Assembly (NCBI GenBank): GCA_019661945.1 | Contig: JAIFWI010000002.1 | Coordinates: 763 to 64,762 of the forward strand | DNA: 64,000 bases | Reading direction: 5' to 3' | Origin: Candidatus Parcubacteria bacterium | GTDB lineage: Bacteria; Patescibacteriota; Minisyncoccia; Phycocordibacterales; JAKAEA01 | Shown: one piece after another, positions 3,269 to 52,616 of the stretch | How positions within the stretch are numbered: position 1 is the first letter of the stretch | Layout: the number at the start of each line of letters is the position of its first letter | Notes under the pieces: model-generated | What the model saw: the letters and a program-made list of their open reading frames with translations, nothing else | Told to the model about the DNA's origin: nothing | The model's database searches: none | Made by a program: the position numbers and the translations under genes

Positions 3269-3412
3269 ATTTACTACAGTACAAGAAATCTATCATATTT
3301 CAGGAGTGAATGAAAGGAAGTAGAGTGTGTACTTGACCTTTGGTATTAATGTGATATAATGAGTTTTGGAATCAACAAGTAACTGAGTTTGTTTACCAAA
3401 AAAGGAGACGTC

Positions 3413-3748
3413 ATGGACAAGGTAGTTCTGACTGTTGCTGTGCTCGGGCTCGTTGTGTGGCTGAGCTCACTCGTGGACAAGGGCTGCTCCGGCAAGAAGG
3501 ATGCCCCGCCGAGTACACCGCCTGCAGTTGTCCGAAAGCAGCCTGCGGTCAGAATGGCCCGGGTGCCGATCGAGAACAAAACGTCGGTGCCGCAGCAGTT
3601 CGATGCCGAAGGTGTCCCCGAGACGACCATCGCGCCGAAGTCCAAGCTCTACGTTGAATTGCCGGTCACAAAGGAGTTCAACGGCTTCAAGACGGTCCGC
3701 TACAAGATCGACGGCAAACCCAAGAAGATGTCCTGGCTTCTCGACTAG
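3413..3748 (+). CDS. Small secreted protein or lipoprotein (signal peptide plus Cys) in a GC-rich island
   Basis: MDKVVLTVAVLGLVVWLSSLVDKGCSG...; AAGGAG RBS 5 nt upstream; region is markedly GC-rich with ORFs open in several frames. Confidence 0.5.
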   Translation: MDKVVLTVAVLGLVVWLSSLVDKGCSGKKDAPPSTPPAVVRKQPAVRMARVPIENKTSVPQQFDAEGVPETTIAPKSKLYVELPVTKEFNGFKTVRYKIDGKPKKMSWLLD

Positions 3749-3764
3749 GACACACCCAAACAAA

Positions 3765-3801
3765 GACCCTTATCGTCGCTTCGCGATGATAAGGGTCTTC
3801 T
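3765..3801 (+). terminator. Rho-independent terminator hairpin (gacccttatcgtcgc / gcgatgataagggtc) followed by a T-rich tail
   Basis: Read directly. Confidence 0.6.
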
Positions 3802-3807
3802 GCTTTA

Positions 3808-4452
3808 TTAATGAGCAATACTAAAGGCGATAACGTTTCTAGCTCCTGATTTGAGGAGCGTAGTTTTTGCTTCGAGGATAGTAGAACCAGTTGTGGTGAC
3901 ATCATCAAGCAGAATTATATTTCTCTTTTTTATTTTTTCTGGTTCTAAGACTGCAAAACAACCTTTCAAATTTTTCAGGCGTTTTGATTTTGAGAGTTTA
4001 GTCTGGGCTTCGGTATGACGAATTTTTTTCAATATATTTTTTTCGAGCATAAATGATCTATTTCTATCTTTTGCTTGAAGAGCCGTAGCAATCATTTCAG
4101 TTTGATTCCAGCCTCGTTCTTGGAGACGTTGGCTTGAAAGGGGAATGGGAATAAGCAGAGGATCAGTAAAGCCTGAAAACAAGGCTTCATCGGCTAGGTA
4201 TTCAATGATTTCATCATACAGAATGTCAGCTAAAAGTCTGGCGAGTGTGTTGTTGCCGCGATATTTTAATTCCCATAATGTTTTTTGAACTAAGGGATGT
4301 TTATAATTGAAAATACTGACAATATCAGCTGAAATCTGCTCAAGTGCTTGTGGCGCTTCCGAAATAAAATCTTCAGCTGTCATTTTTTCGATTCTTTCAA
4401 TATCAATAGGTTGAGGAAATAGTATGTCAATGAAATAGTGTAGGAAATTCAT
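3808..4452 (-). CDS. ComF-family phosphoribosyltransferase (competence protein F-like)
   Basis: 214 aa; C-terminal PRTase motif ILLDDVTTTGSTI. Confidence 0.7.
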   Translation of the reverse strand: MNFLHYFIDILFPQPIDIERIEKMTAEDFISEAPQALEQISADIVSIFNYKHPLVQKTLWELKYRGNNTLARLLADILYDEIIEYLADEALFSGFTDPLLIPIPLSSQRLQERGWNQTEMIATALQAKDRNRSFMLEKNILKKIRHTEAQTKLSKSKRLKNLKGCFAVLEPEKIKKRNIILLDDVTTTGSTILEAKTTLLKSGARNVIAFSIAH

Positions 4453-4522
4453 ATATATATAGTAGCGATAGGTGTTAAAAACTTCTTAAAGACTAATTCA
4501 TCTGTGGTATACTACTTTTGTA

Positions 4523-5686
4523 ATGGCAAACTTTTTTAAGAAGCTTTTTGGTGGAACAAATGCCAGTGTATTGGGTATTGATATTGGATCAGCAGCTATT
4601 AAAATTGTTCAACTTCGAAAGAAATCTGGCCAGGCAGTTCTCGAAACATATGGCTCACTTGCTCTTGGACCATACGGTAATGTTGAAATTGGCCGCTCAC
4701 CAAACTTGCCGCCCGAAAAGATTATTGAAGCGCTCATTGATGTTTTGCGTGAATCACATGTCTCAACAAATCAAGCTGGATTAGCCGTGCCCTATGGGGC
4801 TAGTCTTATTTCAGTAGCAGAATTGCCCGAAGTAGCTGAAGCAGAGCTTATGAAAATTATTCCTTTTGAGGCGCGTAAATATATTCCTGTGCCGCTTTCA
4901 GAAGTGATGCTTGATTGGATGATCATTCCTAAAGCTGTAGGAGCGGCCGATAAAACTCGTCAGTTACAGCAGCCACAGCCTCAATCTCAGGCTCAAGCAG
5001 GAGTTGAGCCAGCTCAGGCACCGCCTTCTCAAGTACAAAAAACAATAGAAGTACTTTTAGTGGCAATGCACAATGAAACTATTTCTCGTTATCAATCAAT
5101 TGTCACTCAGGCTGGTCTCAATGTCAGTTTTCTTGAAATAGAAGCATTCAGCAATATTAGATCAGTCCTTGATCAGGGTGCAACAAGTGAAATGCTTATT
5201 GATATAGGCTCAGCCACGACAAAAGTATATATCGTTGAGAAGGGGATTATTCGTACACCTCATCTTGTTAATCATGGTTCGCAGGACGTAACTATGGCTC
5301 TTTCTTCAAAACTTGGAATTTCCGTCGAGGAAGCTGAAGTCTTGAAACGAGGCCTGGTCAAAGTGCCAGAAGGACAGCAAAAGGATGTTGGTGAAGTGAT
5401 TTTGCAGGCGCTTGAACCGCTTTTCTCAGAAATTAATCAGGTCTTATTGAGTTATCAGAAGCGCTATAATAAGGATATTGCTAAAACTTCCATAGTTGGT
5501 GGCGGTGCCCGTTTAGCTAACCTCCTTACTTTTGCCGAATCAAGAATTAGAACAAATGTTGTTCTGGGCAATCCTTTTGGAAAAACCCTAGCCCCGGCCT
5601 TTTTGGAGCAAGTACTCAAAGAAACTGGACCTGAATTTGCCGGAGCAGTGGGCGTTGCCCTAAGGAAACTGCAAGAACAAGGTTAA
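4523..5686 (+). CDS. pilM: Type IV pilus assembly ATPase-like protein PilM
   Basis: 387 aa actin-like fold; N-terminus LGIDIGSAAIKIV; first gene of the pil operon; Q/P-rich low-complexity insert. Confidence 0.85.
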   Translation: MANFFKKLFGGTNASVLGIDIGSAAIKIVQLRKKSGQAVLETYGSLALGPYGNVEIGRSPNLPPEKIIEALIDVLRESHVSTNQAGLAVPYGASLISVAELPEVAEAELMKIIPFEARKYIPVPLSEVMLDWMIIPKAVGAADKTRQLQQPQPQSQAQAGVEPAQAPPSQVQKTIEVLLVAMHNETISRYQSIVTQAGLNVSFLEIEAFSNIRSVLDQGATSEMLIDIGSATTKVYIVEKGIIRTPHLVNHGSQDVTMALSSKLGISVEEAEVLKRGLVKVPEGQQKDVGEVILQALEPLFSEINQVLLSYQKRYNKDIAKTSIVGGGARLANLLTFAESRIRTNVVLGNPFGKTLAPAFLEQVLKETGPEFAGAVGVALRKLQEQG

Positions 5687-5737
5687 GTGGAAAACTCGTA
5701 CTAGACCTGTAGAGCTTTGTGATACAATAGAATATAC

Positions 5738-6343
5738 ATGGAGGGTAAATTTCAAACATCATTCATTCCAAAAAAATCTGGAGGTGGTCAGCCTTCGTAT
5801 GTCACGCCTGTCAGGACCATAAATTTCTTTACCCTGACAATTATAATTATTTTTGCCACGGTTGTTCTGCTTTCAGCCGGAGTTTATGGTTATAAATGGA
5901 TGCTTAACCGTAACAATGAAGAAATCAAAGATGAGTTAAGCGCAGCTCTTGATGCTCTCAGAAAAGAAAACATCGCAGAGCTTGGCAGACTCGACTCAAG
6001 AATTGAAACAGGTAAAACACTTCTTGGTGAACACGTAGCTCTATCTGAATTCTTTACGTTTTTGAGTAAATCAACGCTACAAAATGTTCGCTTTACAAAT
6101 TTTAGATACAGCCTGACCGGCGATCAGAAAATAACAGTCAGTATGAATGGTATGGCCAGAAACTTCTCTTCCTTGGCCCTTCAGATAGATGAATTTTCAG
6201 CCACAACATCACAAAAGTATATAAAGGGCCCGGTATTTTCCAGTTATAGTTTAGACAAAGCAGGCAATGTTTCGTTTGTGTTTACTGCTGTGGTTAATCC
6301 TGAGTCAATTTTGTATAAGGAGCTTTTTAAAGAAGAACAATGA
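5738..6343 (+). CDS. pilN: PilN-like pilus assembly protein (single N-terminal TM)
   Basis: Position after pilM; one TM then coiled coil. Confidence 0.5.
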   Translation: MEGKFQTSFIPKKSGGGQPSYVTPVRTINFFTLTIIIIFATVVLLSAGVYGYKWMLNRNNEEIKDELSAALDALRKENIAELGRLDSRIETGKTLLGEHVALSEFFTFLSKSTLQNVRFTNFRYSLTGDQKITVSMNGMARNFSSLALQIDEFSATTSQKYIKGPVFSSYSLDKAGNVSFVFTAVVNPESILYKELFKEEQ

Positions 6344-6861: not shown

Positions 6862-6865
6862 TATT

Positions 6866-7192: not shown

Positions 7193-8938
7193 ATGACACT
7201 GCTAGACGCTCTTGCAGAAAAAAAACTAATCTCTAAAAGCCAGGCTGCGGAAATTCGAGAAGAAGTAGAACGCGGCGACAAAACCCTTGAGATTGCACTC
7301 AAGGATAGAGGCATTACCGAAGAACAAATTCTGATAGTTAAATCAGAAGTGTTGGAGGTGCCGGTCCGGACTATTCAGAATGTGGAGACCTTACAGTCAT
7401 CGGTACTCGATTACATTCCTGAAGAATCGGCCATTCACTATAAATTTATTCCACTCGGAGTAAAAGATGGTGTGCTTGAAGTTGGACTTGTTGATCCTGA
7501 CAATATTGAAGCTCGGGATGCTCTAAGCTTTATTTCCACAAAAGTAAATATGCCCTATAAGGCATATCTCATTTCTCAGACTGATTTTGAGAAAGTATTG
7601 GGGGCGTATCGAAATTTAGCTTCTGAAGTAACAAAAGCTCTGGATGATTTGGATTCAGAACTTAAGGGTACAACCCCTGCCCAAGAAGACAAAGTTTCAA
7701 GTACAAAGCCTGGAGAGGGAGCAAAGGGAAAAGAGAATAATGATGATACAAAGATTGTTGAAGATGCGCCGGTAACAAAAATTGTAGCTACCGTTCTGCG
7801 TTATGCCAGTGAGGGCAATGCTTCTGACATTCACATTGAGCCTATGCGAGATAATGTTCGAGTTCGATTTCGCGTTGACGGCATTTTAAATACCAGTTTA
7901 GTCCTGCCAAATAAAGTTCATGCAGCTTTGGCCGCCCGCATAAAAATACTTTCAAACATGCGTCTTGATGAAAAAAGAAAACCTCAGGACGGACGTTTTT
8001 CGGCAAAAATTGAAGGACACAAAATTGATTTCCGTGTTTCGACATTCCCGACATATTTCGGAGAGAAAGTCGTGATGCGTATCCTTGATCAGGAAAAATC
8101 TGTTAAAAATTTCGATGTCATGGGCCTGACTGAACGAAACTTAAATCTTATTAAGGCTGCTATCAAGAAACCATATGGTTTGATTCTTATTTCTGGTCCA
8201 ACCGGTTCCGGAAAAACCACGACGCTCTATTCTATGTTGAGCCTTGTCGATCGTGAACGAAAAAATGTTCTATCCCTCGAAGATCCGATTGAATACAATA
8301 TGGATGGTGTCAATCAGTCTCAGATTCGACCGGAAATCGGCTACACCTTTGCCAATGGTCTGCGTACTACCTTGCGTCAAGACCCGAACGTTATTTTGGT
8401 GGGAGAGATTCGAGATAAAGAAACAGCTCAGCTTGCCGTCCAGGCGGCTCTTACCGGACACTTGGTGCTTTCAACCATTCACACCAATAACTCTGTTGGT
8501 GTAATTCCGCGTCTCATTGATATGGGAGTTGATCCGTATCTTATTGCGCCGACGCTTGTTTTGGCTGTTGGTCAGCGTCTGGCGGCCATGCTTTGTCCTG
8601 GGGCTGGTAAAGAAATTCCGGTGGAAGGGAGCCTGAGAGTTCGAATAGATAAGCAATTTGAAGATTTACCAGCCGAAATTAGGAAACAAATTCAAATCCC
8701 GGCCACTATACGGGAAGTTGAGCCAACCTCAGAATGTCCAAGCGGTACACGCGGCAGAGCACCTGTCTTTGAAATGTTTGAAATGGATAAAGACATTGAG
8801 CGAGCCATATTATCCAATGCCACGGAGCTCGAAATTTCAAAAATCGTTCGCCAGAAAGGCATGCTTAACATGCGGGAAGACGCTTGGCTCAAGGCTTTTC
8901 GGGGGGAACTGCCTATCGAGGAGGTAAACAAATTGTAA
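7193..8938 (+). CDS. pilB: Type IV pilus extension ATPase PilB (GspE family)
   Basis: 581 aa; Walker A GPTGSGKTTT, Asp box, His box, C-terminal tetracysteine-like region. Confidence 0.9.
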   Translation: MTLLDALAEKKLISKSQAAEIREEVERGDKTLEIALKDRGITEEQILIVKSEVLEVPVRTIQNVETLQSSVLDYIPEESAIHYKFIPLGVKDGVLEVGLVDPDNIEARDALSFISTKVNMPYKAYLISQTDFEKVLGAYRNLASEVTKALDDLDSELKGTTPAQEDKVSSTKPGEGAKGKENNDDTKIVEDAPVTKIVATVLRYASEGNASDIHIEPMRDNVRVRFRVDGILNTSLVLPNKVHAALAARIKILSNMRLDEKRKPQDGRFSAKIEGHKIDFRVSTFPTYFGEKVVMRILDQEKSVKNFDVMGLTERNLNLIKAAIKKPYGLILISGPTGSGKTTTLYSMLSLVDRERKNVLSLEDPIEYNMDGVNQSQIRPEIGYTFANGLRTTLRQDPNVILVGEIRDKETAQLAVQAALTGHLVLSTIHTNNSVGVIPRLIDMGVDPYLIAPTLVLAVGQRLAAMLCPGAGKEIPVEGSLRVRIDKQFEDLPAEIRKQIQIPATIREVEPTSECPSGTRGRAPVFEMFEMDKDIERAILSNATELEISKIVRQKGMLNMREDAWLKAFRGELPIEEVNKL

Positions 8939-12909: not shown

Positions 12910-13359
12910 ATGAAAAGAGGCTTTACCTTGATTGAATTGCTCGTAGTTATTGCTGTTATTGGTGTTCTCTCTGCTACTGTTTTAGCTTCTCTTAACAATG
13001 CTCGAGAAAAAGGATCCAATGCAGCTATTAAATCAAGTATTAATAATGCTCGTTCTCAGGCTGAGCTATACTACGCCGATAATACTTTGAGTTATCTTAA
13101 TGTCTGTAACACTGGGGTTTTGGCAGGCGGTTTAACAAAAGGCATTTATGATTTGGCTCTGAACGCCGCAAGTTCCAATGGTGGAGTTGTCGGTACGGAT
13201 GTACTGTGCGCTTCAGATGCAAATACTTGGGCTCTTACTGCACGACTGAGGGGTACGCCTATTAATTGGTACTGTGTCGATTCGACAGGTGTTGCTACAA
13301 CATCGATCATAGCTAATGATGTCGCGGCCGGTGCCGACTATACTTGTGCGGTTGATTGA
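12910..13359 (+). CDS. Type IV pilin paralog
   Basis: MKRGFTLIELLVVIAVIGVLSA...; N-terminal half highly similar to the upstream pilin. Confidence 0.85.
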   Translation: MKRGFTLIELLVVIAVIGVLSATVLASLNNAREKGSNAAIKSSINNARSQAELYYADNTLSYLNVCNTGVLAGGLTKGIYDLALNAASSNGGVVGTDVLCASDANTWALTARLRGTPINWYCVDSTGVATTSIIANDVAAGADYTCAVD

Positions 13360-14767: not shown

Positions 14768-14782
14768 ATTGTATACTTACTA

Positions 14783-22441: not shown

Positions 22442-22469
22442 CAACGTAATACAAAAATAGAGGAACGAG

Positions 22470-22507
22470 AAAGGCCGGACTGCGTTTTGATAAACAGTCC
22501 GGCCTTT
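22470..22507. terminator. Strong bidirectional hairpin (13-bp stem aaaggccggactg / cagtccggccttt)
   Basis: Read directly; A-tract before and T-tract after. Confidence 0.5.
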
Positions 22508-22529
22508 GAGTTGTGCACTGACCTGACGA

Positions 22530-22778
22530 TCAGAAGTTGGGCTTCCGGCTCCGGCCCATGCTAAGCCTGAGCGGCGTGATGTGCGGGATGCGCCGGCAGC
22601 TCTCGCTGTCGCGCTTACGGTAGTCAGCCCTGAGTTTGCCGGCGAACATCGGTGGCGGGTCGATCTTGACGATGCCCGGCTCGACGATCTGTGCGGTCGG
22701 TTCGCTCATCAGCTCGTGCCTGGACCTCGGCATCAAGTCGCTTCTGATCTGTCCGCACCACGGGGTGGTTCTGGGCAT
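22530..22778 (-). CDS. Small hypothetical protein in a GC-rich island
   Basis: 82 aa ORF with a GAGGAG RBS about 7 nt upstream; overlapping plus-strand ORF 22581-22877 is an alternative. Confidence 0.3.
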   Translation of the reverse strand: MPRTTPWCGQIRSDLMPRSRHELMSEPTAQIVEPGIVKIDPPPMFAGKLRADYRKRDSESCRRIPHITPLRLSMGRSRKPNF

Positions 22779-22918
22779 ACAGTGCTCCTCGAGAGGGTAG
22801 AGGTGAAGTGTTTGCGGGCTTTCCTTATCCCGCGCTGTCGCTATTATATCATATATAATCTATATGTCAAGGAATGATTTTACCATACCAATGATGTGTG
22901 ATATAGTGATTTTTGCAT

Positions 22919-34106: not shown

Positions 34107-34134
34107 TTGACAAATATCATATTTTATATATAAT
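34107..34134 (+). promoter_or_regulatory. Near-consensus sigma70-like promoter: TTGACA, 16-nt spacer, TATAAT
   Basis: Read directly, 48 nt upstream of the ATG at 34183. Confidence 0.35.
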
Positions 34135-34182
34135 ATTTTTCGGTAGAAAGTTCCTCAAACTAAACCATCAACGGGAGAACTC

Positions 34183-34986
34183 ATGGCTGGAGATATGGAT
34201 CGAGAAACTCGTCTCAACCTGTGCCATAAGCTTATGGCAAATGCGGAATGGTGGCAGGGAAAGGTGAATGATGACCATCTCACACTGGTGATTGCCTTTC
34301 TTAAGGAGAGAATGGTTGTGGCTCGGCCATCAGACAGCAGTTCTGTCGGGGCCATGACGCCATTGCCGAAGGGTGTGCCGCCCTTGTATGTTGTGCCTCT
34401 CATGTCGCATGACCAGTATGTCGGTCGAGGAGAATGGAGGCAGTACCTCCATAGCGACAGCTCTGCCTGTTTCGTTGGGCCGGCATCACTTCTGGTCCTC
34501 TCAAGTCTCATCGATCGGAGCTTGGTGTCACTTGCGCTTGTATTCTTGCATGAGGCTGACCATGCTTATGGATGGTTTGTGCTCGGCAATAATGGTGAGC
34601 GCAATGGGCAGGCGAGGCTTGATGAGGAGATCAGGGTTCGAAGGAACGATAACAGAGCGATGACTAAGTTCGGGTTCAATCCTTACAATCGCTACATCGA
34701 CCTGTTAGCCCTGAAGGTGAAAGAAGAGATTGAAACCAAAGACGAGATGTGGATTGAACGGTGCATGTGTTCTGATTGGAGGGTTCTTGATGGCTTCTTG
34801 GGTTCTTCAGTAAGTGGGAGCGAACAACGATTTCGTCAGTCGAAGATTGCTCACCATGTCATTGAAGTTGTGGCAAGCTTGCTGCAACCCGATGAAGCGC
34901 AGCGCCCTGTTCTACATCGAGAGCTTCTGTTGTGCTTTTACGCGAAGGCTGCGCCGCCGCCGATGCTCAAACGGTATGCTGATTGA
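34183..34986 (+). CDS. Hypothetical protein with HExxH (LHEADHAYG) motif in a GC-rich island; putative zinc metallopeptidase
   Basis: 267 aa; gggaga RBS; GC-rich with ORFs open in several frames. Confidence 0.45.
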   Translation: MAGDMDRETRLNLCHKLMANAEWWQGKVNDDHLTLVIAFLKERMVVARPSDSSSVGAMTPLPKGVPPLYVVPLMSHDQYVGRGEWRQYLHSDSSACFVGPASLLVLSSLIDRSLVSLALVFLHEADHAYGWFVLGNNGERNGQARLDEEIRVRRNDNRAMTKFGFNPYNRYIDLLALKVKEEIETKDEMWIERCMCSDWRVLDGFLGSSVSGSEQRFRQSKIAHHVIEVVASLLQPDEAQRPVLHRELLLCFYAKAAPPPMLKRYAD

Positions 34987-35103
34987 TTCAGTCCAGATAC
35001 TACATTGTTTATCTGGGCTTTTTTCTTTTTAGTGCTATACTTGCGGCAATAGTTGAGACCAGCCTAAGGCTAGAAGGGTATTATAAGTTAAGTATTTAAT
35101 AAT

Positions 35104-38963: not shown

Positions 38964-39069
38964 TCTTGTGTTTCTTGGCTTTTTGAGTACTATACGGTGA
39001 GATCAGGGAGATACCTCCCAAAGCTGACAGGCCTTTGTCTGTCGAACCTGAACCTTGAAAAGGAGCGTT

Positions 39070-40665
39070 ATGAAAAACGCACTGATATCCGTGTATCGCA
39101 AGGATGGCATCGTCGAATTTGCCCGAGCACTCATGGAGCTCGGCTTCACGATCTACGCCTCGGGTGGGACGTACAAGCATCTCGCAGAACATGGCATCGA
39201 GACTCTGCCTGTGGCGAATCTCGTCGGCGGCGGAGCCATTCTCGATCATCGAGTGGTGACCCTGTCGCGTGAAGTTCACGCCGGACTTCTGGCCAGGAAT
39301 ACGCCAGAGGACATCGGCGAATTGGTCAGCCTGGCCATTCCACGCATTGACCTGGTATGTGTTGATCTCTATCCATTGGAAAAGGAGATCGCCAAGCCCG
39401 GCAGCACGCGTGACTCAGTCATCGAGATGACCGACATCGGCGGCCCGACCATGATTCGCTCTGGTGCTAAGGGCGCTCGAGTGGTCATCTGCGATCCGCA
39501 GGATCGGGACGAGGTCATCGCTTGGCTTCGAGCCGGTGAACCGGAGAATGGGTTTGTCGAAGATCTCGGTGCAAAAGGTGAATTCACTGTCGCCGGGTAT
39601 TGCATGGCTTCGGCTAGATACCTAAGCGGCGGTAAATACGAAGGATTTTTCGGTAAGCGTGTTGCGGTCTGTAAGTACGGCGAGAACGCCTGGCAGGCAC
39701 CGGCGCATCTTTATTCGACGGGCAGCGATGATCCACTGGCAATCGACAATTTTGCTGTGGTTGACGGAGCACCCCCGAGCTATAACAATTGGGTCGACAT
39801 CGACCGCTTGCTCCAGACACTGACGCACATTGGCAGGGTATACTCACTCAATCAAGGTGTCGACACAGCTATTGCTGTTGGCGCTAAGCACGGCAATGCA
39901 TGCGGTGTGGCAGTCGGATCAGACCGCGTGGATATTGTCGCCAGGATGATGGCTGGTGATCCACTGGCAATCTTTGGCGGACTGGTCATGACAAACTTTG
40001 AAGTGACTGAAATCTCAGGCCAGGTCCTTGTCGGTAAAATGCTGGATGGCATCATTGCTCCATCATTTACCCCGGCTGCGATAGACATGCTTCGCCGCAA
40101 AGGCGACAGATGTCGGTTCATCGTGAACCCGGCACTCACTGCTTCAAGCAATAGTTTGGATCAAGCGCCGCGTTTCCGCTATGTTCGCGGCGGTTTCCTT
40201 GTCCAGCCGAATTATACGTTCGTGCCGGAGTTTTACATTTCACCACTGGAACACAAGTCCGTGAGTGGAATCGTAAAATATGGCTCGGCTACTGCAAAGC
40301 AAGAAACGGACATGATGCTTGCCTGGGCTATCGGTTCGACCAGTAATAGCAATACGATCACGCTTGTGAAAAATAAGCAGCTCATCGGCAATGGCGTCGG
40401 TCAGCAAGATCGTGTCGGCGCAGCCGAGCTTGCCATAAGGAAGGCTCATCGTGCCGGACATGATGTGACTGATGCTGTGGCCTACAGTGATTCGTTCTTC
40501 CCATTCCCTGATGGACCGCAAAAGCTCATTGAAGCTGGCGTTAGAGCCATCTTCACGAGTAGCGGTTCGGTCAGAGACCGGGAAACGATTGATCTTTGTG
40601 CAAAACACAACGTCGCACTCTACATGATTCCTGATCAAATCGGCCGAGGGTTCTTCGGTCACTAG
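39070..40665 (+). CDS. purH: Bifunctional AICAR transformylase / IMP cyclohydrolase PurH in a GC-rich island
   Basis: MGS-like N-terminus KNALISVYRKDGIVEFARAL...ASGGT; AICARFT domain; AGGAG RBS 4 nt upstream of the ATG at 39070. Confidence 0.85.
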   Translation: MKNALISVYRKDGIVEFARALMELGFTIYASGGTYKHLAEHGIETLPVANLVGGGAILDHRVVTLSREVHAGLLARNTPEDIGELVSLAIPRIDLVCVDLYPLEKEIAKPGSTRDSVIEMTDIGGPTMIRSGAKGARVVICDPQDRDEVIAWLRAGEPENGFVEDLGAKGEFTVAGYCMASARYLSGGKYEGFFGKRVAVCKYGENAWQAPAHLYSTGSDDPLAIDNFAVVDGAPPSYNNWVDIDRLLQTLTHIGRVYSLNQGVDTAIAVGAKHGNACGVAVGSDRVDIVARMMAGDPLAIFGGLVMTNFEVTEISGQVLVGKMLDGIIAPSFTPAAIDMLRRKGDRCRFIVNPALTASSNSLDQAPRFRYVRGGFLVQPNYTFVPEFYISPLEHKSVSGIVKYGSATAKQETDMMLAWAIGSTSNSNTITLVKNKQLIGNGVGQQDRVGAAELAIRKAHRAGHDVTDAVAYSDSFFPFPDGPQKLIEAGVRAIFTSSGSVRDRETIDLCAKHNVALYMIPDQIGRGFFGH

Positions 40666-40681
40666 TTCTTAGGCGAAACGC

Positions 40682-40707
40682 AATACTCCAGGTGGAGTAT
40701 TTTTTTA
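40682..40707 (+). terminator. Rho-independent terminator (aatactcca gg tggagtatt ttttt)
   Basis: Read directly. Confidence 0.5.
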
Positions 40708-41076
40708 TTGTCATTTAAGTTTAATCCAAAAATAGATGAAGCCCTACAACAAACAAATGTGTTGTAGGGCTCCAGGTTGGACCGCTTGTTTTCTCTTCAG
40801 TGGTAATGAGGTGCGGTAAGCTCAGTACCAACGGGCAGGGATTGCCTGCCGGTGCGTCGGGTCTCTACCAGCTGCGCAGTGCGCAGGACGAGGCCGGCTT
40901 GGCCTGCGGGCTGGCTCGTGAGTGCATCATCGGATTTCTCCTCTGATCTGAGCGCGGATTACATGCTTATATACCAGCATGCTCGGTAGCCCCATGAAGG
41001 GCAATCTGTCCTGCCCATAATATTAACTCAACCTTAAAATTTATCAAGCTTATTCCGATTTGCTATACTTATCCAT

Positions 41077-43682: not shown

Positions 43683-43714
43683 CAGTATGTATTGCTGTAG
43701 AGTTACAGTAATAC

Positions 43715-44494
43715 ATGAAAGAATTCTTTGTCTTTGGTCTAAAAGAAGCCCAGGCGGCACTCTTTGCCGGATCATTTTTCACTCTGCTTTTTCTTTCGAA
43801 TCATATTCCACTTTTTGGCATCACTCGCTATGATTTCTTATTCGTCACGGCTGTTCTTATTCAACTTGTTCTTTATCTCACAGGACTTGAGACCAAGGAT
43901 GAGGTGAAAGTCATATTTCTCTTTCATATTATAGGTTTGATTCTTGAGCTGTATAAAACGCATCCAGCTGTCGGTTCATGGAGCTATCCTGAACCTGCTT
44001 TTTTCAAAATCAGCACCGTGCCGCTCTATAGCGGCTTTATGTATGCCGCTATCGGCAGTTATATCAGTCAGGCTTGGAAAATTTTTAAATTGGAGGTAAC
44101 GAATTATAATCACTACATTTGGAGCGTCGTACTCTGTATCCTTATTTATTTGAATTTTTTCACCAATCATTTTCTGCCTGATATTCGACTTATTCTTATT
44201 CCGGCAGTATTTATATTTTTCAGGAAAGTAGATGTCTATTTTACCGTGACAAAAAAGCGGAGAATGATGCCGTTGACCCTGTCATTTATCCTCATTGCCT
44301 TCTTCATCTGGATCGCTGAGAATATCTCAACCTTTTGGGGTGCTTGGCAATATCCTGATCAAGTTCATGTTTGGAATGTGGTTTCGACTCAAAAAATTAC
44401 TTCATGGTTTCTGATGGTTATTATCAGCTTTATTCTAGTGGCATACCTCAAGCACTTTAAAAAAGATGTATTGAAAATTGCCCCCTCTGAATGA
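43715..44494 (+). CDS. Polytopic hypothetical membrane protein
   Basis: 259 aa, about 7 TM. Confidence 0.5.
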   Translation: MKEFFVFGLKEAQAALFAGSFFTLLFLSNHIPLFGITRYDFLFVTAVLIQLVLYLTGLETKDEVKVIFLFHIIGLILELYKTHPAVGSWSYPEPAFFKISTVPLYSGFMYAAIGSYISQAWKIFKLEVTNYNHYIWSVVLCILIYLNFFTNHFLPDIRLILIPAVFIFFRKVDVYFTVTKKRRMMPLTLSFILIAFFIWIAENISTFWGAWQYPDQVHVWNVVSTQKITSWFLMVIISFILVAYLKHFKKDVLKIAPSE

Positions 44495-44574
44495 TCTCTT
44501 GCTTTCGAGTAATTTTTATGTAGTATTGTTGTTGGAATCATTGGTGAGGACTTCTCAACAAGAAGGGAGCGACA

Positions 44575-44964
44575 ATGGTCCTGACAAGGCTACAGCTTGA
44601 ACTTTTGAGGCAAGGCTTTGATCAAGCAGAGAATAACAAGGAGGCTTGGCAGGCAGTTTTCCAGGCTGTTGGTATGAATTTTGTTGGGTGCACGCTTCGA
44701 CAGCAAGGGTTTGATTCGCGTCAGTACAAAGTTGTGCAAATGGTTCTTACTGCCAACTCTTGCATATTCTTCATGAAACCTTTCTATGAAGAGTGCAAGT
44801 ATACACGCGAGGCTCTGTGTCATTTCCAGAACATGGAATTTAACCTCAACCGATACAAGCCTGGTCTCATAAGGCATGAAATCATTCTCGGATGTCCTCC
44901 AGGTTATGGCTACGGTGAACAAAACAGTATGTACCTTGCTTTTGATGTAAGCTCAGAGTCGTAA
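44575..44964 (+). CDS. Hypothetical protein
   Basis: 129 aa, aagggag RBS; no motif recognised. Confidence 0.4.
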   Translation: MVLTRLQLELLRQGFDQAENNKEAWQAVFQAVGMNFVGCTLRQQGFDSRQYKVVQMVLTANSCIFFMKPFYEECKYTREALCHFQNMEFNLNRYKPGLIRHEIILGCPPGYGYGEQNSMYLAFDVSSES

Positions 44965-45012: not shown

Positions 45013-45255
45013 ATGACCTATTTTGTTTATATTCTTGAATGCGCCGATAAAACGCTTTACGTCGGTTGTACCAATAATTTAGAGAAAAGAATACTTCAGC
45101 ATAATACCTCCAAACAAGGCGCGCACTATACAAAAATTCGAAGACCAGTAATATTACGGTATTCTGAGAAGTTTCCAAACTTGAAGCTTGCTCGCGCCCG
45201 CGAAGCGGAAATAAAAAGGTGGGATAGGAAGAAGAAATTAAATCTTTTCAATTAA
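45013..45255 (+). CDS. Small GIY-YIG nuclease family protein (second copy)
   Basis: FVYILECADKTLYVGCTNNLEKRILQHN. Confidence 0.8.
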   Translation: MTYFVYILECADKTLYVGCTNNLEKRILQHNTSKQGAHYTKIRRPVILRYSEKFPNLKLARAREAEIKRWDRKKKLNLFN

Positions 45256-45281
45256 AAAACCCGTACTCCAACAGGTTTCTG

Positions 45282-45854
45282 TTAAAGTGCGGGTATAGGT
45301 TTTTCAACCGCGCGCAGGTTCAGCACGACCAACAACGTGTTGAAGATAATGCTGCTGACCGGAAAAGCGCGGTCCTGAATCGTCCAAGCCTTGGCGGTTA
45401 TAAGTGTGACTACCGCTGCGATGGTGATTATTGCCCAGACCCACCAGGTCGTCGGATCAGGTTGCTTCCAGAGGTCGCAGAGCAGGGGAATGGATGCGAG
45501 CCACATTGCGATAATGCAGGCAATGACTGCCCCCTTAGGCGCGCTGTAGTATCGAAGCAGCATGGCAACTGCCGCGCCGACAGCGCAGATCGTCTCGACA
45601 TAGCCCCATGACCATTTGCCTTTGCTGAGCAGAATGATGCTGATGAACACGCTGCCGAGGGTGAATCCAGCTGAGAGCCAGATATCCTTGTTTCCGGCAG
45701 CGAACATACTGAGGGTGATGACGAAGCTGAGAACTCCCCACATGAGCCAGGTGGCAACATTCATGGGGGTGTTGCTCTTCAGTAACTTAATCCCAAAAGG
45801 GATAAGGACGATACTTGGCGTCAATCCAGCAATCACTCCAAGATTTATTTCCAT
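45282..45854 (-). CDS. Hypothetical polytopic membrane protein in a GC-rich island
   Basis: Start at MEINLGV with GGAGGT RBS; GC-rich with ORFs in several frames. Confidence 0.5.
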   Translation of the reverse strand: MEINLGVIAGLTPSIVLIPFGIKLLKSNTPMNVATWLMWGVLSFVITLSMFAAGNKDIWLSAGFTLGSVFISIILLSKGKWSWGYVETICAVGAAVAMLLRYYSAPKGAVIACIIAMWLASIPLLCDLWKQPDPTTWWVWAIITIAAVVTLITAKAWTIQDRAFPVSSIIFNTLLVVLNLRAVEKPIPAL

Positions 45855-45941
45855 GGGACCTCCGAGGTTGGTGACAAGGTTCAAGCGGTACAAAACCTCG
45901 GCTAGTATGTCATATATCGTAAATTTGTGCTATAAAGTGTC

Positions 45942-46790
45942 ATGGCAAAAATCTTGGACGGTAAAAAAGTAAGCAGCGAACGCGCCGCAGAACTTGTAAA
46001 AAAGATTCAAAAACTTTCAGTTGAGCCGAAACTCATCATTATCCAAGTCGGTGATTTAAAAGAATCTAATACCTACATTAAACATAAAATAGATTTTGCT
46101 AAAAAAGTTGGTATCATTACCGAGCATAAAAAATATCAGGAGAACATATCCGAGCAGGAGGTTATAGCGGATATCCTGAAATATAATGCTGACCCGGCAA
46201 TTCATGGAGTTATTGTTCAATTGCCGTTGCCTAGAAACATACATACTGGTGAAATTGTTGAGTCTATTGATCCTAAAAAAGATGTTGATTGTTTGACATC
46301 AAAAAACATTAAACTTCTTTTTGATGAGACTGAAGCTATTCTGCCAGCAACAACCAAAGGTATTGTTACACTACTTCAGTATTATGATATTGATCTTAAG
46401 GGTAAAAGAGTAACGATGATTGGAGAATCTTCCTTGGTTGGCCGGCCAACAACACTAGCTCTTCTTAACCGGATGGCAACAGTTACTGTTTGTCATACCC
46501 ACACTGTCCAATTGAAGGAAGAAACAAAGCGGGCTGATATTCTTATTGTAGCTGCAGGCTCCCCAGGCTTAATTACTCCAAAACATGTTTCAAAGAATCA
46601 AATAATCATTGATGTTGGCATTACGGTAAAGGGAAAAAATAAAATAGTGGGGGATGTTGAATATGAAAAAGTTAAAGATATGGTTCAGGCCATTACTCCC
46701 GTACCTGGCGGTGTCGGACCAATGACGGTATTGTCTCTTTTTGAAAATGTAGTTGATGCGGCTACTGCTCAACAAAAAACGATCCTTTAA
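45942..46790 (+). CDS. folD: Bifunctional methylene-THF dehydrogenase / methenyl-THF cyclohydrolase
   Basis: 282 aa; MAKILDGKKVS..., GRPT, PGGVGPMT. Confidence 0.9.
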   Translation: MAKILDGKKVSSERAAELVKKIQKLSVEPKLIIIQVGDLKESNTYIKHKIDFAKKVGIITEHKKYQENISEQEVIADILKYNADPAIHGVIVQLPLPRNIHTGEIVESIDPKKDVDCLTSKNIKLLFDETEAILPATTKGIVTLLQYYDIDLKGKRVTMIGESSLVGRPTTLALLNRMATVTVCHTHTVQLKEETKRADILIVAAGSPGLITPKHVSKNQIIIDVGITVKGKNKIVGDVEYEKVKDMVQAITPVPGGVGPMTVLSLFENVVDAATAQQKTIL

Positions 46791-49994: not shown

Positions 49995-49998
49995 TTTT

Positions 49999-50745: not shown

Positions 50746-50787
50746 TAGTATTGTTGAGTTAGTTCATTACTAAGTAATTTTTTATAT

Positions 50788-51213
50788 ATGGGAGTTCCAA
50801 TAAATTATTGGGCAGTGTTGGTGGCAACACTGGTCAACATTGTTTTAGGATTTTTGTGGTATGGACCGATTTTTGGTAAAAAGTGGAGGAGACTCATGGG
50901 CATGACGATAGAGAGTATGGAGAAGATGAAAGCCAAGGGCATGACACAGAGCTATGTGCTTATGATCGTCGGCGCTTTGGTTATGAATTATGTATTGGCT
51001 CATGCCTTGGTTTTTGGTATGACCTACACCGGCATGTACGGAGTTGTTGGAGGCATGACTGGAGCATTTTACTATTGGCTCGGTTTTGCTGCGCCATTAA
51101 CCTTGAGTTCTGTAATGTGGGAAGGCAAGTCATGGAAATTGTGGTTCATTGATGCTGGCTACTATTTGGTGGCTCTTCTCATTGCTGGCGCAATCTTCGG
51201 ATACTGGGTGTAA
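50788..51213 (+). CDS. DUF1761-like membrane protein
   Basis: N-terminus [28 protein letters not shown]. Confidence 0.5.
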
Positions 51214-51776
51214 TGAAAATACGTCCACTTGTTTTGATTGTTCTCGGGCTTCTTATTATTCATGCTGGAATTTTATACTGGATGGGTCAAGTGCCGATCT
51301 GTAAGTGCGGCTATGTGAAATTGTGGCATGGTGTGGTTTCAAGTTCCGAAAACTCTCAACATCTGACTGACTGGTATACGTTTTCTCATATTATTCACGG
51401 TTTTGTTTTCTACTTTTTCTTGTGGCTCATTAACAAAAAATGGCCGATACCATGGCAGATGCGATTATTGATTGCCATTGGTGTTGAAATGGCTTGGGAG
51501 ATTTTTGAAAATACTGATTTTATTATTAATCGCTATAGGGAAGTAACTATTTCACTTGATTATTACGGTGACAGTATTATTAATTCTGTGGCAGATATTG
51601 TGGCAATGATCGTTGGATTCTTGGCAGTGCGAAAAATGCCAATTTGGCTGACTATTCTTTTGATAATTGGCATGGAAGTTTTCGTTGGATATTATATTCG
51701 CGATAATTTAACCCTCAATATTATTATGCTCATCTATCCACTTGAATCAATTCGAGTTTGGCAAATGGCTGGGTAA
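51213..51776 (+). CDS. Hypothetical membrane protein
   Basis: 187 aa, 4-5 TM. Confidence 0.45.
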
Positions 51777-51801
51777 TAAAAAACAACTCTCTCGAGTTGC
51801 C

Positions 51802-52506
51802 TTACGTATACGTATACGGATACTGATCGATGTCGTACCTTTCGGGTACTTGGAGCGATGTGGGATCTTTTCCGTCCCAACTGATGAGACCTTGAACCAC
51901 CATGTTGGTGATGCCAGGCTGATGCTGATGCTCAACTTTGTTTACGTTTGCTGCCAGCGTTTCGGCAGTATCTTCAGGTGAGATATGCACGAAATGTCGG
52001 AAGAAGACTGGGCCGACGTCGTACTGAGTCTTGTCATCGGACGAAGTTTCACTGACGAAGTGCATGCAAGCGGCAGAGTGAGTAATCACTTTACGTCTGT
52101 ACGCCTCAATACTGGCTTCGTGGACATGATGCCCGAACATGTTATGACCACCGAAGTGATCAGGCCGCCCAGGCATTGTCAGATTCCCTGGATGGATGTT
52201 AATCGTTATCCGAGGATCATGACCAGATATGAGCTTGAGCCATCCTGTCAAAGCAACAAGATCAGGCTCGTACCTCTGGAAAATTCCTCGGTATTCTTCC
52301 TCAATGTAGGGACCTTGGAAAGGGATGAATGGAATTCCTAAGCGATCTGCTCTGACTCGGACACCTCCATTGGGATAGTTGCAAACCACCCCAATGATCT
52401 TTGCCTGAAGTGTCCCATTTTTGGTTGCTTCAAACAGCTTCTCCAATCCTGAACCACCACTTGTGGGTGTTCCAGAAGCCAAACCGAGTATGCGTGGTAA
52501 GCTCAT
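51802..52506 (-). CDS. Formyltransferase-domain protein (PurN/GAR transformylase-like), moderately GC-rich
   Basis: KIIGVVCNYP..., EPDLVALTGWLKLI, INIHPGNL (HxSLLP-like); AGGAG RBS. Confidence 0.55.
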   Translation of the reverse strand: MSLPRILGLASGTPTSGGSGLEKLFEATKNGTLQAKIIGVVCNYPNGGVRVRADRLGIPFIPFQGPYIEEEYRGIFQRYEPDLVALTGWLKLISGHDPRITINIHPGNLTMPGRPDHFGGHNMFGHHVHEASIEAYRRKVITHSAACMHFVSETSSDDKTQYDVGPVFFRHFVHISPEDTAETLAANVNKVEHQHQPGITNMVVQGLISWDGKDPTSLQVPERYDIDQYPYTYT

Positions 52507-52575
52507 GGCGAGCTCCTTCCTGTAAAAGGCCTAGGGTCTATCGATATAGTAATCAAATATATGTAATTTGCAAAT

Positions 52576-52608
52576 AAAAACGCCCCGCAAGAGGCGGGGC
52601 GTTTTTTT
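52576..52608. terminator. Strong bidirectional terminator (aaaaacgccccgc aaga gcggggcgttttttt)
   Basis: Read directly. Confidence 0.8.
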
Positions 52609-52616
52609 AGGAGTGA

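What the first reader, a model, noticed from the sequence alone, without database searches (positions are those of the whole stretch)
3389..52610. Multiple GC-rich micro-islands whose genes carry canonical AGGAG ribosome binding sites, in a genome whose native genes lack them
The islands are at about 3390-3760, 22445-22800, 34180-34990, 39000-41076, 45280-45900 and 51800-52510. Each stands out by eye as GC-rich (about 50-60%) against a roughly 35-42% background, with ORFs open in many frames.

Their predicted starts have textbook RBSs: AAGGAG at 3413, GAGGAG at 22778(-), GGGAGA at 34183, AGGAG at 39070, GGAGGT at 45854(-), AGGAG at 52506(-). Native genes (pilM, pilB, ligA, nrdA, pilA) have no purine-rich RBS.

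Several islands abut tRNAs or strong hairpins. This pattern indicates repeated horizontal acquisition from a high-GC donor (for an episymbiotic CPR cell, possibly its host) rather than assembly chimerism, because the islands are interleaved with native genes.
Basis: partly seen in the sequence, partly recalled or inferred. Interest (0 to 1): 0.75.

Follow-up and report, generated by a model that had tools for sequence, protein, structure and literature searches.

The report
GC-rich foreign gene cassettes in Parcubacteria
In a small, AT-rich Parcubacteria genome whose own genes start translation without a leader, six or seven single genes stand out as GC-rich, leadered, Shine-Dalgarno-bearing units; they are most likely horizontally acquired, and the one traceable case comes from other Patescibacteria rather than from a high-GC host.

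Summary
All six islands exist at the stated places and are GC outliers, each above every one of 2,000 native segments of the same length. Their codon usage is atypical. All six have a Shine-Dalgarno (SD) site, against 2 of 65 native genes. Native genes are mostly leaderless, with a -10 box 3-12 nt upstream of the ATG.

Each island is one compact transcription unit: promoter, 45-75 nt leader, SD, GC-rich ORF, terminator. A seventh mini-unit lies at 40735-41012(-).

Horizontal acquisition is the best explanation, but no high-GC host donor was found.
- **PurH (I4):** its closest relatives (73-76% aa) are all Patescibacteria. The same purH clade, with a conserved promoter and structured leader, is also a GC-rich, SD-led island in other low-GC Paceibacteria.
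- **PurN-like (I6) and the 7-TM protein (I5):** both have only distant relatives, found next to purine genes.
- **I2 and I3:** no homologue among 5.8 billion proteins.
- **I1:** not searched for distant homologues.

Similar cassettes occur in related genomes. This is a known kind of phenomenon, horizontally acquired islets that are partly ameliorated. It comes with two twists: the translation-initiation mode marks the islets, and the pur leader is a candidate regulatory RNA.

The parts
3333..3799 (+). Island I1 cassette. Promoter TTGACC-16-TATAAT at 3333-3360. SD AAGGAG at 3402-3407. ORF 3413-3748: 111 aa with an N-terminal hydrophobic anchor, annotated hypothetical. Terminator hairpin at 3763-3799.
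   Evidence: Sequence. Promoter and terminator scan. GC 0.59, GC3 0.76, codon z -4.2. No Pfam, NCBIfam, PHROG or PADLOC hit. Singleton 90% cluster.
22470..22870 (-). Island I2 cassette. Perfect promoter TTGACA-16-TATAAT at 22870-22843. SD GAGGAG at 22790-22785. ORF 22778-22530: 82 aa (NCBI calls only the last 59 aa). Hairpin at 22470-22507.
   Evidence: GC 0.64 with GC1/2/3 of 0.51/0.54/0.87. Codon z -6.0. No homologue. No known RNA family.
34107..35026 (+). Island I3 cassette. Perfect promoter TTGACA-16-TATAAT at 34107-34134. SD GGGAGA at 34173-34178. ORF 34183-34986: 267 aa with an HEADH (HExxH) motif. Hairpin plus T-run after the stop codon.
   Evidence: GC 0.51, GC3 0.55, codon z -2.5. Orphan: only a self-hit in 5.8e9 proteins. 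No hit in viral contigs or plasmids. AF2 model unusable, pLDDT 35.
38980..39069 (+). Conserved pur promoter and 5' leader of I4. Promoter motif TTTTTGAGTACTATAC at 38980-38995. P1 pairs 39006-39010 with 39015-39019. P2 pairs 39026-39032 with 39037-39043 (loop CTTT). SD AAGGAG at 39060-39065.
   Evidence: About 80% identical to the leaders of purH in L001, L003 and L004, while 4-fold sites of the CDS are only 42-46% identical. The same motif precedes purC/E. The covariance model finds 12 instances, all in this clade. 5 of 7 P2 pairs show compensatory changes. No Rfam hit.
39070..40701 (+). Island I4: PurH-like bifunctional AICAR formyltransferase / IMP cyclohydrolase (531 aa, 39070-40665), followed by a terminator at 40682-40701.
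   Evidence: Pfam MGS and AICARFT_IMPCHas. NCBIfam purH models are matched below their cutoffs. Homologues. GC 0.54, which is +0.13 over the flanks, against a mean offset of +0.049 in 57 loci. Terminator.
40735..41012 (-). SD GAGGAG at 40943-40938. 21-codon ORF at 40930-40865. Strongly folding body. Terminator at 40774-40737. It may be an sRNA or the remnant of an acquired gene.
   Evidence: Sequence. GC up to 0.73. Fold z = -4.85. Terminator. No Rfam hit. No match in any fetched locus.
45250..45905 (-). Island I5. SD GGAGGT at 45863-45858. ORF 45854-45282: 190 aa with 7 predicted TM helices. Weak hairpin plus T-run after the stop. It is the divergent neighbour of native folD (45942-46790).
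   Evidence: 7 helices, pLDDT 56; FolD. GC 0.53, GC3 0.66, codon z -4.2. A 27%-identical homologue (E 8e-17) lies two genes upstream of purH in L125. The consensus scan called no promoter or terminator here.
51775..52560 (-). Island I6. SD AAGGAG at 52518-52513. ORF 52506-51802: PurN-like formyltransferase, 234 aa. Hairpin plus T-run after the stop.
   Evidence: Pfam Formyl_trans_N, E 1e-11. TIGR00639 PurN at 58.9 bits, below the cutoff of 150. PDB GAR transformylases at E 1e-9. Best relatives are 53% identical. Homologue P0133 lies between purD and purL. GC 0.49, GC3 0.49, codon z -1.9.

Best explanation
The islands are single-gene expression cassettes of foreign origin. They were acquired on separate occasions and are now at different stages of amelioration. 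The host is a Parcubacteria genome whose own genes are transcribed as leaderless mRNAs.

Each cassette is a complete leadered unit: a sigma-70-type promoter, a 45-75 nt 5' UTR with an SD site, a GC-rich ORF and an intrinsic terminator.

**Shown**
- The compositional and codon anomaly.
- The split between SD-led islands and leaderless native genes.
- The cassette anatomy.
- For PurH, membership of a clade confined to Patescibacteria. That clade carries its own conserved promoter and leader. It forms the same kind of GC-rich, SD-led island, alone or as purC/E-purB-purH, in several unrelated low-GC Paceibacteria.

**Inferred**
- The cassettes came in by horizontal transfer from GC-richer genomes in which SD-led initiation is usual. 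For PurH that means other Patescibacteria of about 48-50% GC or richer.
- The SD travels with the gene because a leadered foreign mRNA needs it.
- PurH, the PurN-like enzyme, the 7-TM protein and native FolD together extend the cell's use of 10-formyl-THF to make IMP from imported intermediates.
- The orphan cassettes I1-I3 come from an unsampled accessory pool, such as phages or other Patescibacteria.
For: - **GC and codon outliers**.
- **Coding history in a GC-rich background.** Strong three-base periodicity with GC3 far above GC1 and GC2 in I1, I2 and I5.
- **Initiation mode.** SD in 6 of 6 islands against 2 of 65 native genes. A -10 box at the start codon in 0 of 6 against 44 of 65.
- **PurH homologues** are all Patescibacteria at the top of the lists.
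- **PurH GC normally follows the genome.** Across 57 loci the slope is 0.90 and the mean offset +0.049. The window's +0.13 is among the largest.
- **A native-looking contrast.** L006 has a purH of native GC that is leaderless.
- **Recurrence in other genomes.**
  - L119: purC/E-purB-purH at GC 0.56-0.60, GC3 0.64-0.77, SD-led, amid genes with GC3 of about 0.3 and no SD.
  - L120: purH is +0.12 over its flanks.
  - L001 and L002: purH is +0.13 over its flanks.
- **No conserved position.** purH has different neighbours in each genome.
- **Timing is compatible.** 4-fold identity of 0.42-0.46 to the nearest relatives fits a partly ameliorated GC3 of 0.57.
- **Relatives by ProRS** (70-79%) have window-like GC of 0.39-0.42 and carry none of the islands within 20 kb.
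- **Expression does not explain it.** EF-G and EF-Tu in Patescibacteria loci show no comparable GC3 shift or SD. The pilin-like gene at 12321 has GC3 0.31.
- **Similar cassettes elsewhere:** L089 and L028.
Against: - No donor is identified for any island at high identity. The best is 76% aa for PurH and 53% for PurN-like. I2 and I3 have none. I1 was not searched for distant homologues.
- There are no integrases, transposases or att-like direct repeats at the edges. The mechanism of entry is therefore unknown.
- Promoters and terminators are AT-rich, and the GC-rich stretch coincides almost exactly with the ORF. That would also fit a force acting on the coding sequence alone.
- The perfect -35/-10 promoters look like the lineage's own promoter type.
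- The purH clade is GC-richer than its flanks in every genome examined, even in the candidate donors (+0.06 to +0.09). This holds despite about one synonymous substitution per site between copies. That leaves room for gene-specific maintenance of high GC.
- No close relative with conserved synteny was found, so presence versus absence could not be shown.
Confidence: 0.6

Rival explanations
1. One reading: repeated transfer from one high-GC non-CPR donor, possibly the episymbiont's host.
For: GC3 of I1 (0.76) and I2 (0.87) implies a source of roughly 57-68% GC, judging from the GC3 against flank-GC relation. Few Patescibacteria are that GC-rich. Orphan status does not exclude an unsampled host.
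Against: - PurH is clearly from the Patescibacteria pool, leader DNA included.
- I5's only detected homologue is in a Paceibacterota, next to purH.
- GC3 is spread from 0.49 to 0.87, so there is no single source.
- Hosts are usually better sampled than CPR, yet I2 and I3 have no homologue in 5.8e9 proteins, and plasmid searches with I2, I3 and I5 found nothing.
Confidence: 0.1
2. The islands are long-resident genes of the lineage. Their GC-rich codons and SD-led leaders are kept by selection, for expression level, mRNA stability or regulated translation, and not by recent transfer.
For: - The GC-rich stretch equals the ORF.
- The promoters are of the lineage's own type.
- The purH clade stays GC-rich in every host genome despite a dS of about 1.
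- Its leader is under strong constraint.
- The same cassette style recurs in relatives.
Against: - PurH GC tracks genome GC across 57 loci, and L006 has a native-GC leaderless purH.
- EF-G and EF-Tu show no such shift and no SD.
- Codon choices in I1 and I2 are those of GC mutation pressure (GC3 0.76-0.87), in a genome with native GC3 of about 0.35.
- Island positions are not conserved.
Confidence: 0.17
3. Assembly or binning artefact: pieces of GC-rich genomes spliced into a Parcubacteria contig.
For: It is a MAG. No second assembly carries the window's island proteins: all are singletons seen on one contig.
Against: - There are seven gene-sized inserts. Each starts after an AT-rich promoter and ends at a terminator, flanked on both sides by native genes on one 68-kb contig.
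- The leader of I4 matches Patescibacteria leaders.
- The equivalent purH island is reproduced in two independent assemblies of another genome.
Confidence: 0.03
4. The GC-rich segments are structured non-coding RNAs, as is usual for GC peaks in AT-rich genomes.
For: The GC peak at 27900-28193 is a tRNA cluster. I4b folds far better than shuffles (z -4.85) and has only a 21-codon ORF.
Against: - No Rfam family beyond tRNAs matched: none at gathering score anywhere in the window, and none with the permissive filters around I1, I2, the I4 leader and I4b.
- There is clear codon periodicity.
- Protein families or transmembrane and signal features are present in I1, I4, I5 and I6.
Confidence: 0.03

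Closest known systems
Horizontally acquired genomic islets detected by atypical composition, and their amelioration (Lawrence and Ochman framework; from my own knowledge)
   Same: Gene-sized segments with deviant GC, GC3 and codon usage. Patchy distribution. Proximity to tRNA genes for two of them. A graded GC3 consistent with different residence times.
   Different: No mobility genes or flanking repeats. The GC anomaly is confined to the ORF. The islets also differ from the host in translation-initiation mode, SD-led against leaderless.
Phage 'morons': independent promoter-gene-terminator units of deviant composition (from my own knowledge)
   Same: Each island is an autonomous unit with its own promoter and terminator and a composition unlike its neighbours. 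Three are orphans.
   Different: They are not inside a prophage. The neighbours are housekeeping genes (ligA, proS, folD, pil genes). No PHROG hits for the orphans and no viral-contig relatives.
Genomes dominated by leaderless or non-SD initiation, such as Deinococcus, many Actinobacteria and Bacteroidota (GeneMarkS-2 genome classes; from my own knowledge)
   Same: Native genes carry a -10 box 6-9 nt before the ATG and no SD.
   Different: Here a small minority of SD-led genes coincides with compositional foreignness. I found no paper describing leaderless dominance in Parcubacteria.
Riboswitch- or leader-controlled purine genes (purine, ZTP and PRPP riboswitches)
   Same: A conserved structured 5' leader is shared by two different purine-biosynthesis genes, purH and purC/E. 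It has a covarying hairpin and an SD close by.
   Different: No match to any Rfam family. It is very small, two short hairpins. The promoter is conserved as well, so a DNA operator or protein-binding leader is equally possible. It is restricted to one Patescibacteria clade.

Membership tests
Horizontally acquired genomic islet | Base composition and codon usage deviate significantly from the host genome | tested here: met
   GC z of 3.3 to 8.6, above every native segment of the same length. Codon z of -1.9 to -6.0.
Horizontally acquired genomic islet | Closest homologues lie in organisms other than the closest relatives, or the gene is absent at the orthologous site in relatives | tested here: inconclusive
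   The best PurH relatives sit in genomes of 0.48 GC, or as islands in other genomes. ProRS relatives of 0.39-0.42 GC show no islands within 20 kb, but synteny is not conserved, so orthologous sites could not be compared.
Horizontally acquired genomic islet | Mobility signatures: integrase or transposase, flanking direct repeats, tRNA target | tested here: not met
   No flanking direct repeats. No mobility domains in the neighbours scanned. Only proximity to tRNAs for I1 and I2.
PurH (AICAR transformylase / IMP cyclohydrolase) | MGS-like and AICARFT_IMPCHas domains over the full length | tested here: met
   Pfam E 1e-15 and 8e-47. 531 aa aligned end to end with 19 homologues, with many invariant columns.
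PurH (AICAR transformylase / IMP cyclohydrolase) | Score above the NCBIfam equivalog cutoff | tested here: not met
   NF002049 at 360.6 bits against a cutoff of 402. TIGR00355 at 305.8 against 528. It is a divergent subfamily, and NCBI calls it hypothetical.
PurN (GAR transformylase) | Formyl_trans_N fold with the N-x-H ... D catalytic motif | tested here: met
   Pfam E 1e-11. PDB GAR transformylases at E 1e-9. INIHPG and YDVGPV were read in the sequence; the motif reading is mine.
PurN (GAR transformylase) | Equivalog-level score, and purine-gene context | tested here: inconclusive
   TIGR00639 at 58.9 bits against a cutoff of 150.1. In the window it stands alone. A 53%-identical homologue lies between purD and purL.
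Phage moron | Autonomous promoter-ORF-terminator unit of deviant composition | tested here: met
Phage moron | Located within a prophage or phage genome | tested here: not met
   The flanking genes are cellular. No phage families or viral relatives.
Known riboswitch classes (purine, ZTP, PRPP, THF) | Match to the family covariance model | tested here: not met
   Rfam cmscan of 38950-39120 at E <= 10 gave only noise.
Structured cis-regulatory RNA (generic) | Conserved structure supported by covariation, and recurrence upstream of functionally related genes | tested here: inconclusive
   P2 has 5 of 7 pairs with compensatory changes. 86% of cells are paired, against 76% when shuffled and 21-59% when slid. 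It is upstream of both purH and purC/E. But there are only 12 sequences from one clade, P1 does not covary, and the alignment was fitted to the model.

The most novel reading that the evidence does not exclude
Low-GC, leaderless-type Patescibacteria share a circulating pool of GC-rich, SD-led, self-contained gene cassettes. One of them is a late-step purine module (purC/E-purB-purH, here only purH) that moves together with its own promoter and a previously undescribed structured leader. That leader could be a new purine-related riboswitch or regulator-binding RNA. If so, the translation-initiation mode would be a practical marker of recent gene flow in CPR genomes, and the module would be a route by which nucleotide-auxotrophic episymbionts regain part of purine synthesis.
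Probability: 0.3. Interest if true: 0.6.

Novelty: new member of a known kind. Interest (0 to 1): 0.45.

Why it matters
CPR and Patescibacteria are thought to depend on hosts for nucleotides. Gene gain in these reduced genomes is less documented than gene loss.

Parts of the purine pathway (PurH, a PurN-like enzyme, possibly a linked membrane protein) arrive here as autonomous, compositionally foreign cassettes. The same purH module recurs as an island in several Paceibacteria. That gives a concrete, testable case of metabolic gain by gene flow inside the radiation.

The SD-versus-leaderless contrast offers a cheap second marker for foreign genes in such genomes, independent of composition.

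The conserved pur leader is a candidate regulatory RNA that can be tested directly.

Tried and rejected
- **Known RNA families.** Rfam at gathering score on the whole window found only tRNAs. Permissive searches on I1, I2, the PurH leader and I4b found no relevant family.
- **Homologue searches for the orphans.** I2 and I3 returned only themselves. Viral-contig scans for I1, I3 and I5 found nothing. Plasmid searches with the I5 and I3 proteins and with I2 DNA found nothing. PADLOC and PHROGs gave nothing for the orphans.
- **Structure prediction.** The models of I3 (pLDDT 35) and I5 (pLDDT 56) were too poor. The Foldseek search with I5 returned noise.
- **Close relatives through a 90% cluster of PilB.** This led to unrelated contigs and wasted one look-up.
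- **Synteny with ProRS relatives from metagenomes.** Only the ProRS-GIY-YIG adjacency is conserved, so no test of presence against absence was possible.
- **Att-like repeats at the island edges.** None found.
- **Perfect consensus promoters as a donor signature.** Rejected, because 12/12 promoters are common across Patescibacteria loci.
- **High expression as the cause of high GC.** Rejected. EF-G and EF-Tu genes in Patescibacteria loci are not GC3-shifted and have no SD.
- **Tandem WG-repeat paralogues in L028 as a test of long-term GC maintenance.** Uninformative, because the duplications are recent (4-fold identity 78-86%).
- **Literature.** Searches found nothing specific on leaderless initiation or purH transfer in Patescibacteria.

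Full report
**Source and background**

The window is most of a 68,357-bp contig of a MAG labelled 'Candidatus Parcubacteria bacterium' (locus tags KW782_). Overall GC is 0.42. It carries housekeeping genes:
- LigA, a GspE/PulE ATPase and a nucleoside 2-deoxyribosyltransferase;
- ProRS, FolD, a sortase with an LPNTG substrate and a response regulator;
- eight tRNAs.

With corrected start codons, the island ORFs are as follows.

| Island | ORF | GC | GC3 |
|---|---|---|---|
| I1 | 3413-3748(+) | 0.59 | 0.76 |
| I2 | 22530-22778(-) | 0.64 | 0.87 |
| I3 | 34183-34986(+) | 0.51 | 0.55 |
| I4 | 39070-40665(+) | 0.54 | 0.57 |
| I5 | 45282-45854(-) | 0.53 | 0.66 |
| I6 | 51802-52506(-) | 0.49 | 0.49 |

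- Native genes mostly have GC3 of 0.29-0.43.
- Each island is GC-richer than all 2,000 native segments of the same length (z 3.3 to 8.6).
- Synonymous-codon likelihood z-scores are -1.9 to -6.0.
- The GC-normalised dinucleotide signature deviates for the longer islands I3, I4 and I6.
- Maximum-likelihood GC boundaries fall within a few tens of nucleotides of the ORF ends.

**Translation initiation**

The SD cores lie 4-7 nt upstream of them. I scored pairing to an assumed anti-SD, because the 16S gene is not in the window.
- All six islands score <= -7.4 kcal/mol.
- Only 2 of 65 native genes reach -6 (Fisher p = 2e-7).
- 44 of 65 native genes have a TANNNT box ending 3-12 nt before the start codon, against 0.18 at random positions. 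The mode is TATACT or TATAAT at 6 nt. No island has one.

So the native genes do not merely lack an SD. Most look leaderless, with the -10 element directly in front of the ATG, often with an upstream TG. I found no paper describing this for Parcubacteria.

**Anatomy of the islands**

Each island is a compact, autonomous unit.
- I1, I2 and I3 are preceded by the three best sigma-70 consensus promoters of the whole window: 11/12, 12/12 and 12/12 matches, all with a 16-nt spacer, 49-65 nt before the ATG.
- They are followed by hairpins with T-runs. The consensus scan calls the one after I1. The I2 hairpin comes from the repeat search. The I3 hairpin was read in the sequence.
- I4 has its own promoter and leader (described below) and a terminator.
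- For I5 and I6 I can see weaker promoter-like and terminator-like sequences, but the scan does not call them.
- A seventh GC-rich unit lies on the minus strand at 40735-41012. It has an SD, a 21-codon ORF, a body that folds far better than shuffles (z -4.85) and a strong terminator.
- No flanking direct repeats or mobility genes were found.

**What the island genes are**

- **I4** is a PurH-type AICAR transformylase / IMP cyclohydrolase. Both Pfam domains are present, but NCBIfam scores fall below the equivalog cutoffs.
- **I6** is a divergent PurN-type formyltransferase. Its best relatives are 53% identical, with 69 representatives below 1e-30. One relative lies between purD and purL.
- **I5** is a small membrane protein with seven predicted helices and no family. 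It has a 27%-identical homologue (E 8e-17) two genes upstream of purH in another Paceibacterota contig. In the window it is the divergent neighbour of native folD.
- **I1** is a 111-aa protein with an N-terminal hydrophobic segment. It hit no family library and no viral contig. I ran no large homologue search for it.
- **I2** (82 aa) and **I3** (267 aa, HEADH motif) have no family. They have no homologue among 5.8 billion proteins.
- Strong codon periodicity argues that all are, or were, coding. I2 has GC1/2/3 of 0.51/0.54/0.87 and I1 has 0.57/0.39/0.76.

**Where PurH comes from**

The 120 best protein hits (57-76% identity) carry only Paceibacterota, Taylorbacteria, Patescibacteria or unclassified 'bacterium' names, where a name is given at all. 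A scan of species-representative genomes gave more than 568 relatives. Patescibacteria are on top at 73%. Nitrospirota and Actinomycetes reach 54-59%.

Across 57 loci the gene's GC follows the GC of its flanks, with slope 0.90 and a mean offset of +0.049. High GC is therefore not an intrinsic property of purH. The window's offset of +0.13 is among the largest. One Paceibacterota (L006, 65% identity) has a purH of native GC with a TATAAT box 6 nt before the ATG, which is a 'native-looking' version.

The window's closest clade (71-76% identity) behaves differently.
- In genomes of about 0.48 GC it sits in a purC/E(-)-purB-purH cluster, at +0.06 to +0.09 over the flanks.
- In low-GC genomes it is a sharp island.
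  - L119: flanks 0.39, while purC/E is 0.60, purB 0.56 and purH 0.58. GC3 is 0.64-0.77 and all three are SD-led. The neighbours have GC3 of about 0.3 and no SD.
  - L120: purH is +0.12 over its flanks.
  - L001 and L002: purH is +0.13 over its flanks, with the same layout in two independent assemblies.
- The neighbours differ in every genome.
- 4-fold sites between the window's copy and these relatives are 42-46% identical, against 24-27% for the saturated comparison with L006. That is roughly one synonymous substitution per site.
- By my rough two-state calculation, this is compatible with a GC3 that has fallen part of the way from about 0.62-0.67 to 0.57.

**A conserved pur leader**

The 90 nt upstream of purH are about 80% identical between the window, L001, L003 and L004. 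That is far above the 4-fold-site identity. The motif runs in this order:
- TTTTTGAGTAnTATA, which contains the -10 box;
- a short hairpin P1 (GGGA...TCCC);
- AAAGCU;
- a 7-bp hairpin P2 with loop CUUU;
- AACUGAAC..UUGAGAAAGGAA, six or so nucleotides, then AUG.

The same architecture precedes purC/E in four genomes, with a different P2 sequence: GAUACGG/CCGUAUC instead of GACAGGC/GUCUGUC. A covariance model found 12 instances among 81 sources, all in this clade.

On the model-fitted alignment 5 of 7 P2 pairs show compensatory changes. 86% of cells pair, against 76% in shuffles and 21-59% in slid controls. P1 does not covary. No Rfam family matches.

I read the P2 loop (CCUUU) as complementary to the SD (AAAGG). 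This is untested.

The element shows that the SD of I4 is part of a conserved leader that travels with the gene. It is a candidate regulatory RNA, but a DNA operator or a protein-binding leader is equally possible.

**The pattern recurs elsewhere**

Perfect consensus promoters are frequent in Patescibacteria loci: 24 in 1.8 Mb, against about 0.65 expected by chance. The island promoters therefore look like the lineage's own type, not a donor trait. Several low-GC genomes have the same cassette style.
- L089 is the closest ProRS relative. It has a 12/12 promoter, an SD-like site, and a 175-aa orphan of GC 0.57 against 0.42.
- L028 has a 165-aa orphan and four tandem WG-repeat paralogues of GC 0.47-0.53 against 0.37, each with its own promoter and SD.

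High expression does not explain this. EF-G and EF-Tu genes in these loci lie within -0.03 to +0.11 of the locus median GC3 and lack an SD.

**Interpretation**

Horizontal acquisition on several occasions, with partial amelioration, explains four things together:
- the composition;
- the periodicity;
- the lack of positional conservation;
- the recurrence of the purH module as an island.

I put it at about 0.6.

The one traceable island comes from the Patescibacteria pool. I5 also has its only detected relative there. The GC3 values are too heterogeneous for one source. It remains possible for I1 and I2 (about 0.1).

The main rival (about 0.17) is that these are resident genes whose GC-rich codons and leaders are maintained by selection. 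Three facts favour it:
- the GC-rich stretch equals the ORF;
- the promoters are native-type;
- the purH clade is GC-richer than its flanks everywhere.

Misassembly and non-coding RNA are unlikely, with I4b as a possible exception for the latter.

**Functional reading (inferred)**

PurH and a PurN-type enzyme both use 10-formyl-THF, which native FolD supplies. Together with a linked membrane protein they could let the cell finish IMP synthesis from imported intermediates. The window holds no other purine-biosynthesis gene among those I scanned, so the extent of the pathway is unknown.

**Limits**
- No reads were available.
- The 16S gene is not in the window.
- No relative close enough for a presence-versus-absence comparison was found.

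Noticed in passing
window 38980-39069; also L001:4213-4306, L003:9909-10003 and 8183-8273(-), L004:975-1067, L005:9915-10003 and 8191-8282(-), L119:7908-8003 and 6109-6199(-), L120:7910-8003, L123:1934-2032: A conserved promoter plus two-hairpin 5' leader is shared by purH and purC/E genes of one Patescibacteria clade. P2 covaries. There is no Rfam match. The P2 loop is complementary to the SD. It is a candidate new cis-regulatory RNA or operator.
   Followed up: partly
window, all native gene starts (for example 4523, 8958, 12910, 17759, 19793, 28209, 36088, 37267, 41077, 46824): Most native genes have an extended -10 box (TGnTATACT or TATAAT) ending about 6 nt before the ATG and no SD. The genome appears to run largely on leaderless mRNAs. 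Internal cistrons also lack an SD.
   Followed up: partly
window 40735-41012 (-): A GC-rich (up to 0.73) unit between purH and the deoxyribosyltransferase gene. It has an SD, a 21-codon ORF, a strongly folding body (z -4.85) and a terminator. It matches no known RNA family and has no relatives. It may be an sRNA or a gene remnant.
   Followed up: partly
L089:2750-3368; L028:7081-7663 and 12927-15217: Other low-GC Patescibacteria carry the same cassette style: consensus promoter, 45-65 nt leader, SD, GC-rich ORF, terminator. The four tandem WG-repeat paralogues in L028 have 62-72% aa identity but 78-86% identity at 4-fold sites, which indicates fast protein diversification.
   Followed up: partly
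fetched Patescibacteria-rich loci (1.8 Mb in total): Perfect TTGACA-N16-18-TATAAT promoters are about 35-fold more frequent than chance (24 against roughly 0.65 expected).
   Followed up: no
window 43056-44964: Three genes (an Excalibur-domain protein, DUF817, and an SD-led 129-aa ORF with GC3 0.47) separate ProRS from a GIY-YIG gene. These two are adjacent in the relatives L094-L097, so this is a possible older insertion.
   Followed up: no
window 33756-34067: An ArsR-type HTH gene directly upstream of I3 has atypical codon usage (z -2.6, GC 0.46). It follows an AHSA1/SRPBCC gene and may belong to an older acquired segment.
   Followed up: no
window 52617-52802 (-), 52985-53320 (+), 53401-54003 (+): A KGG-repeat stress-protein gene. 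A Ser/Pro-rich surface protein with an LPNTG sorting signal (codon z -3.2). An adjacent sortase gene.
   Followed up: no
L125:1533-2162 and window 45282-45854: The 7-TM protein family of I5 lies near purH in another Paceibacterota and next to folD in the window. This hints at a transporter linked to purine or folate metabolism.
   Followed up: partly
window 22371-22442 and 22919-22992: Two tRNA genes with anticodon CAT flank island I2. I did not check whether they are initiator, elongator or tRNA-Ile2.
   Followed up: no
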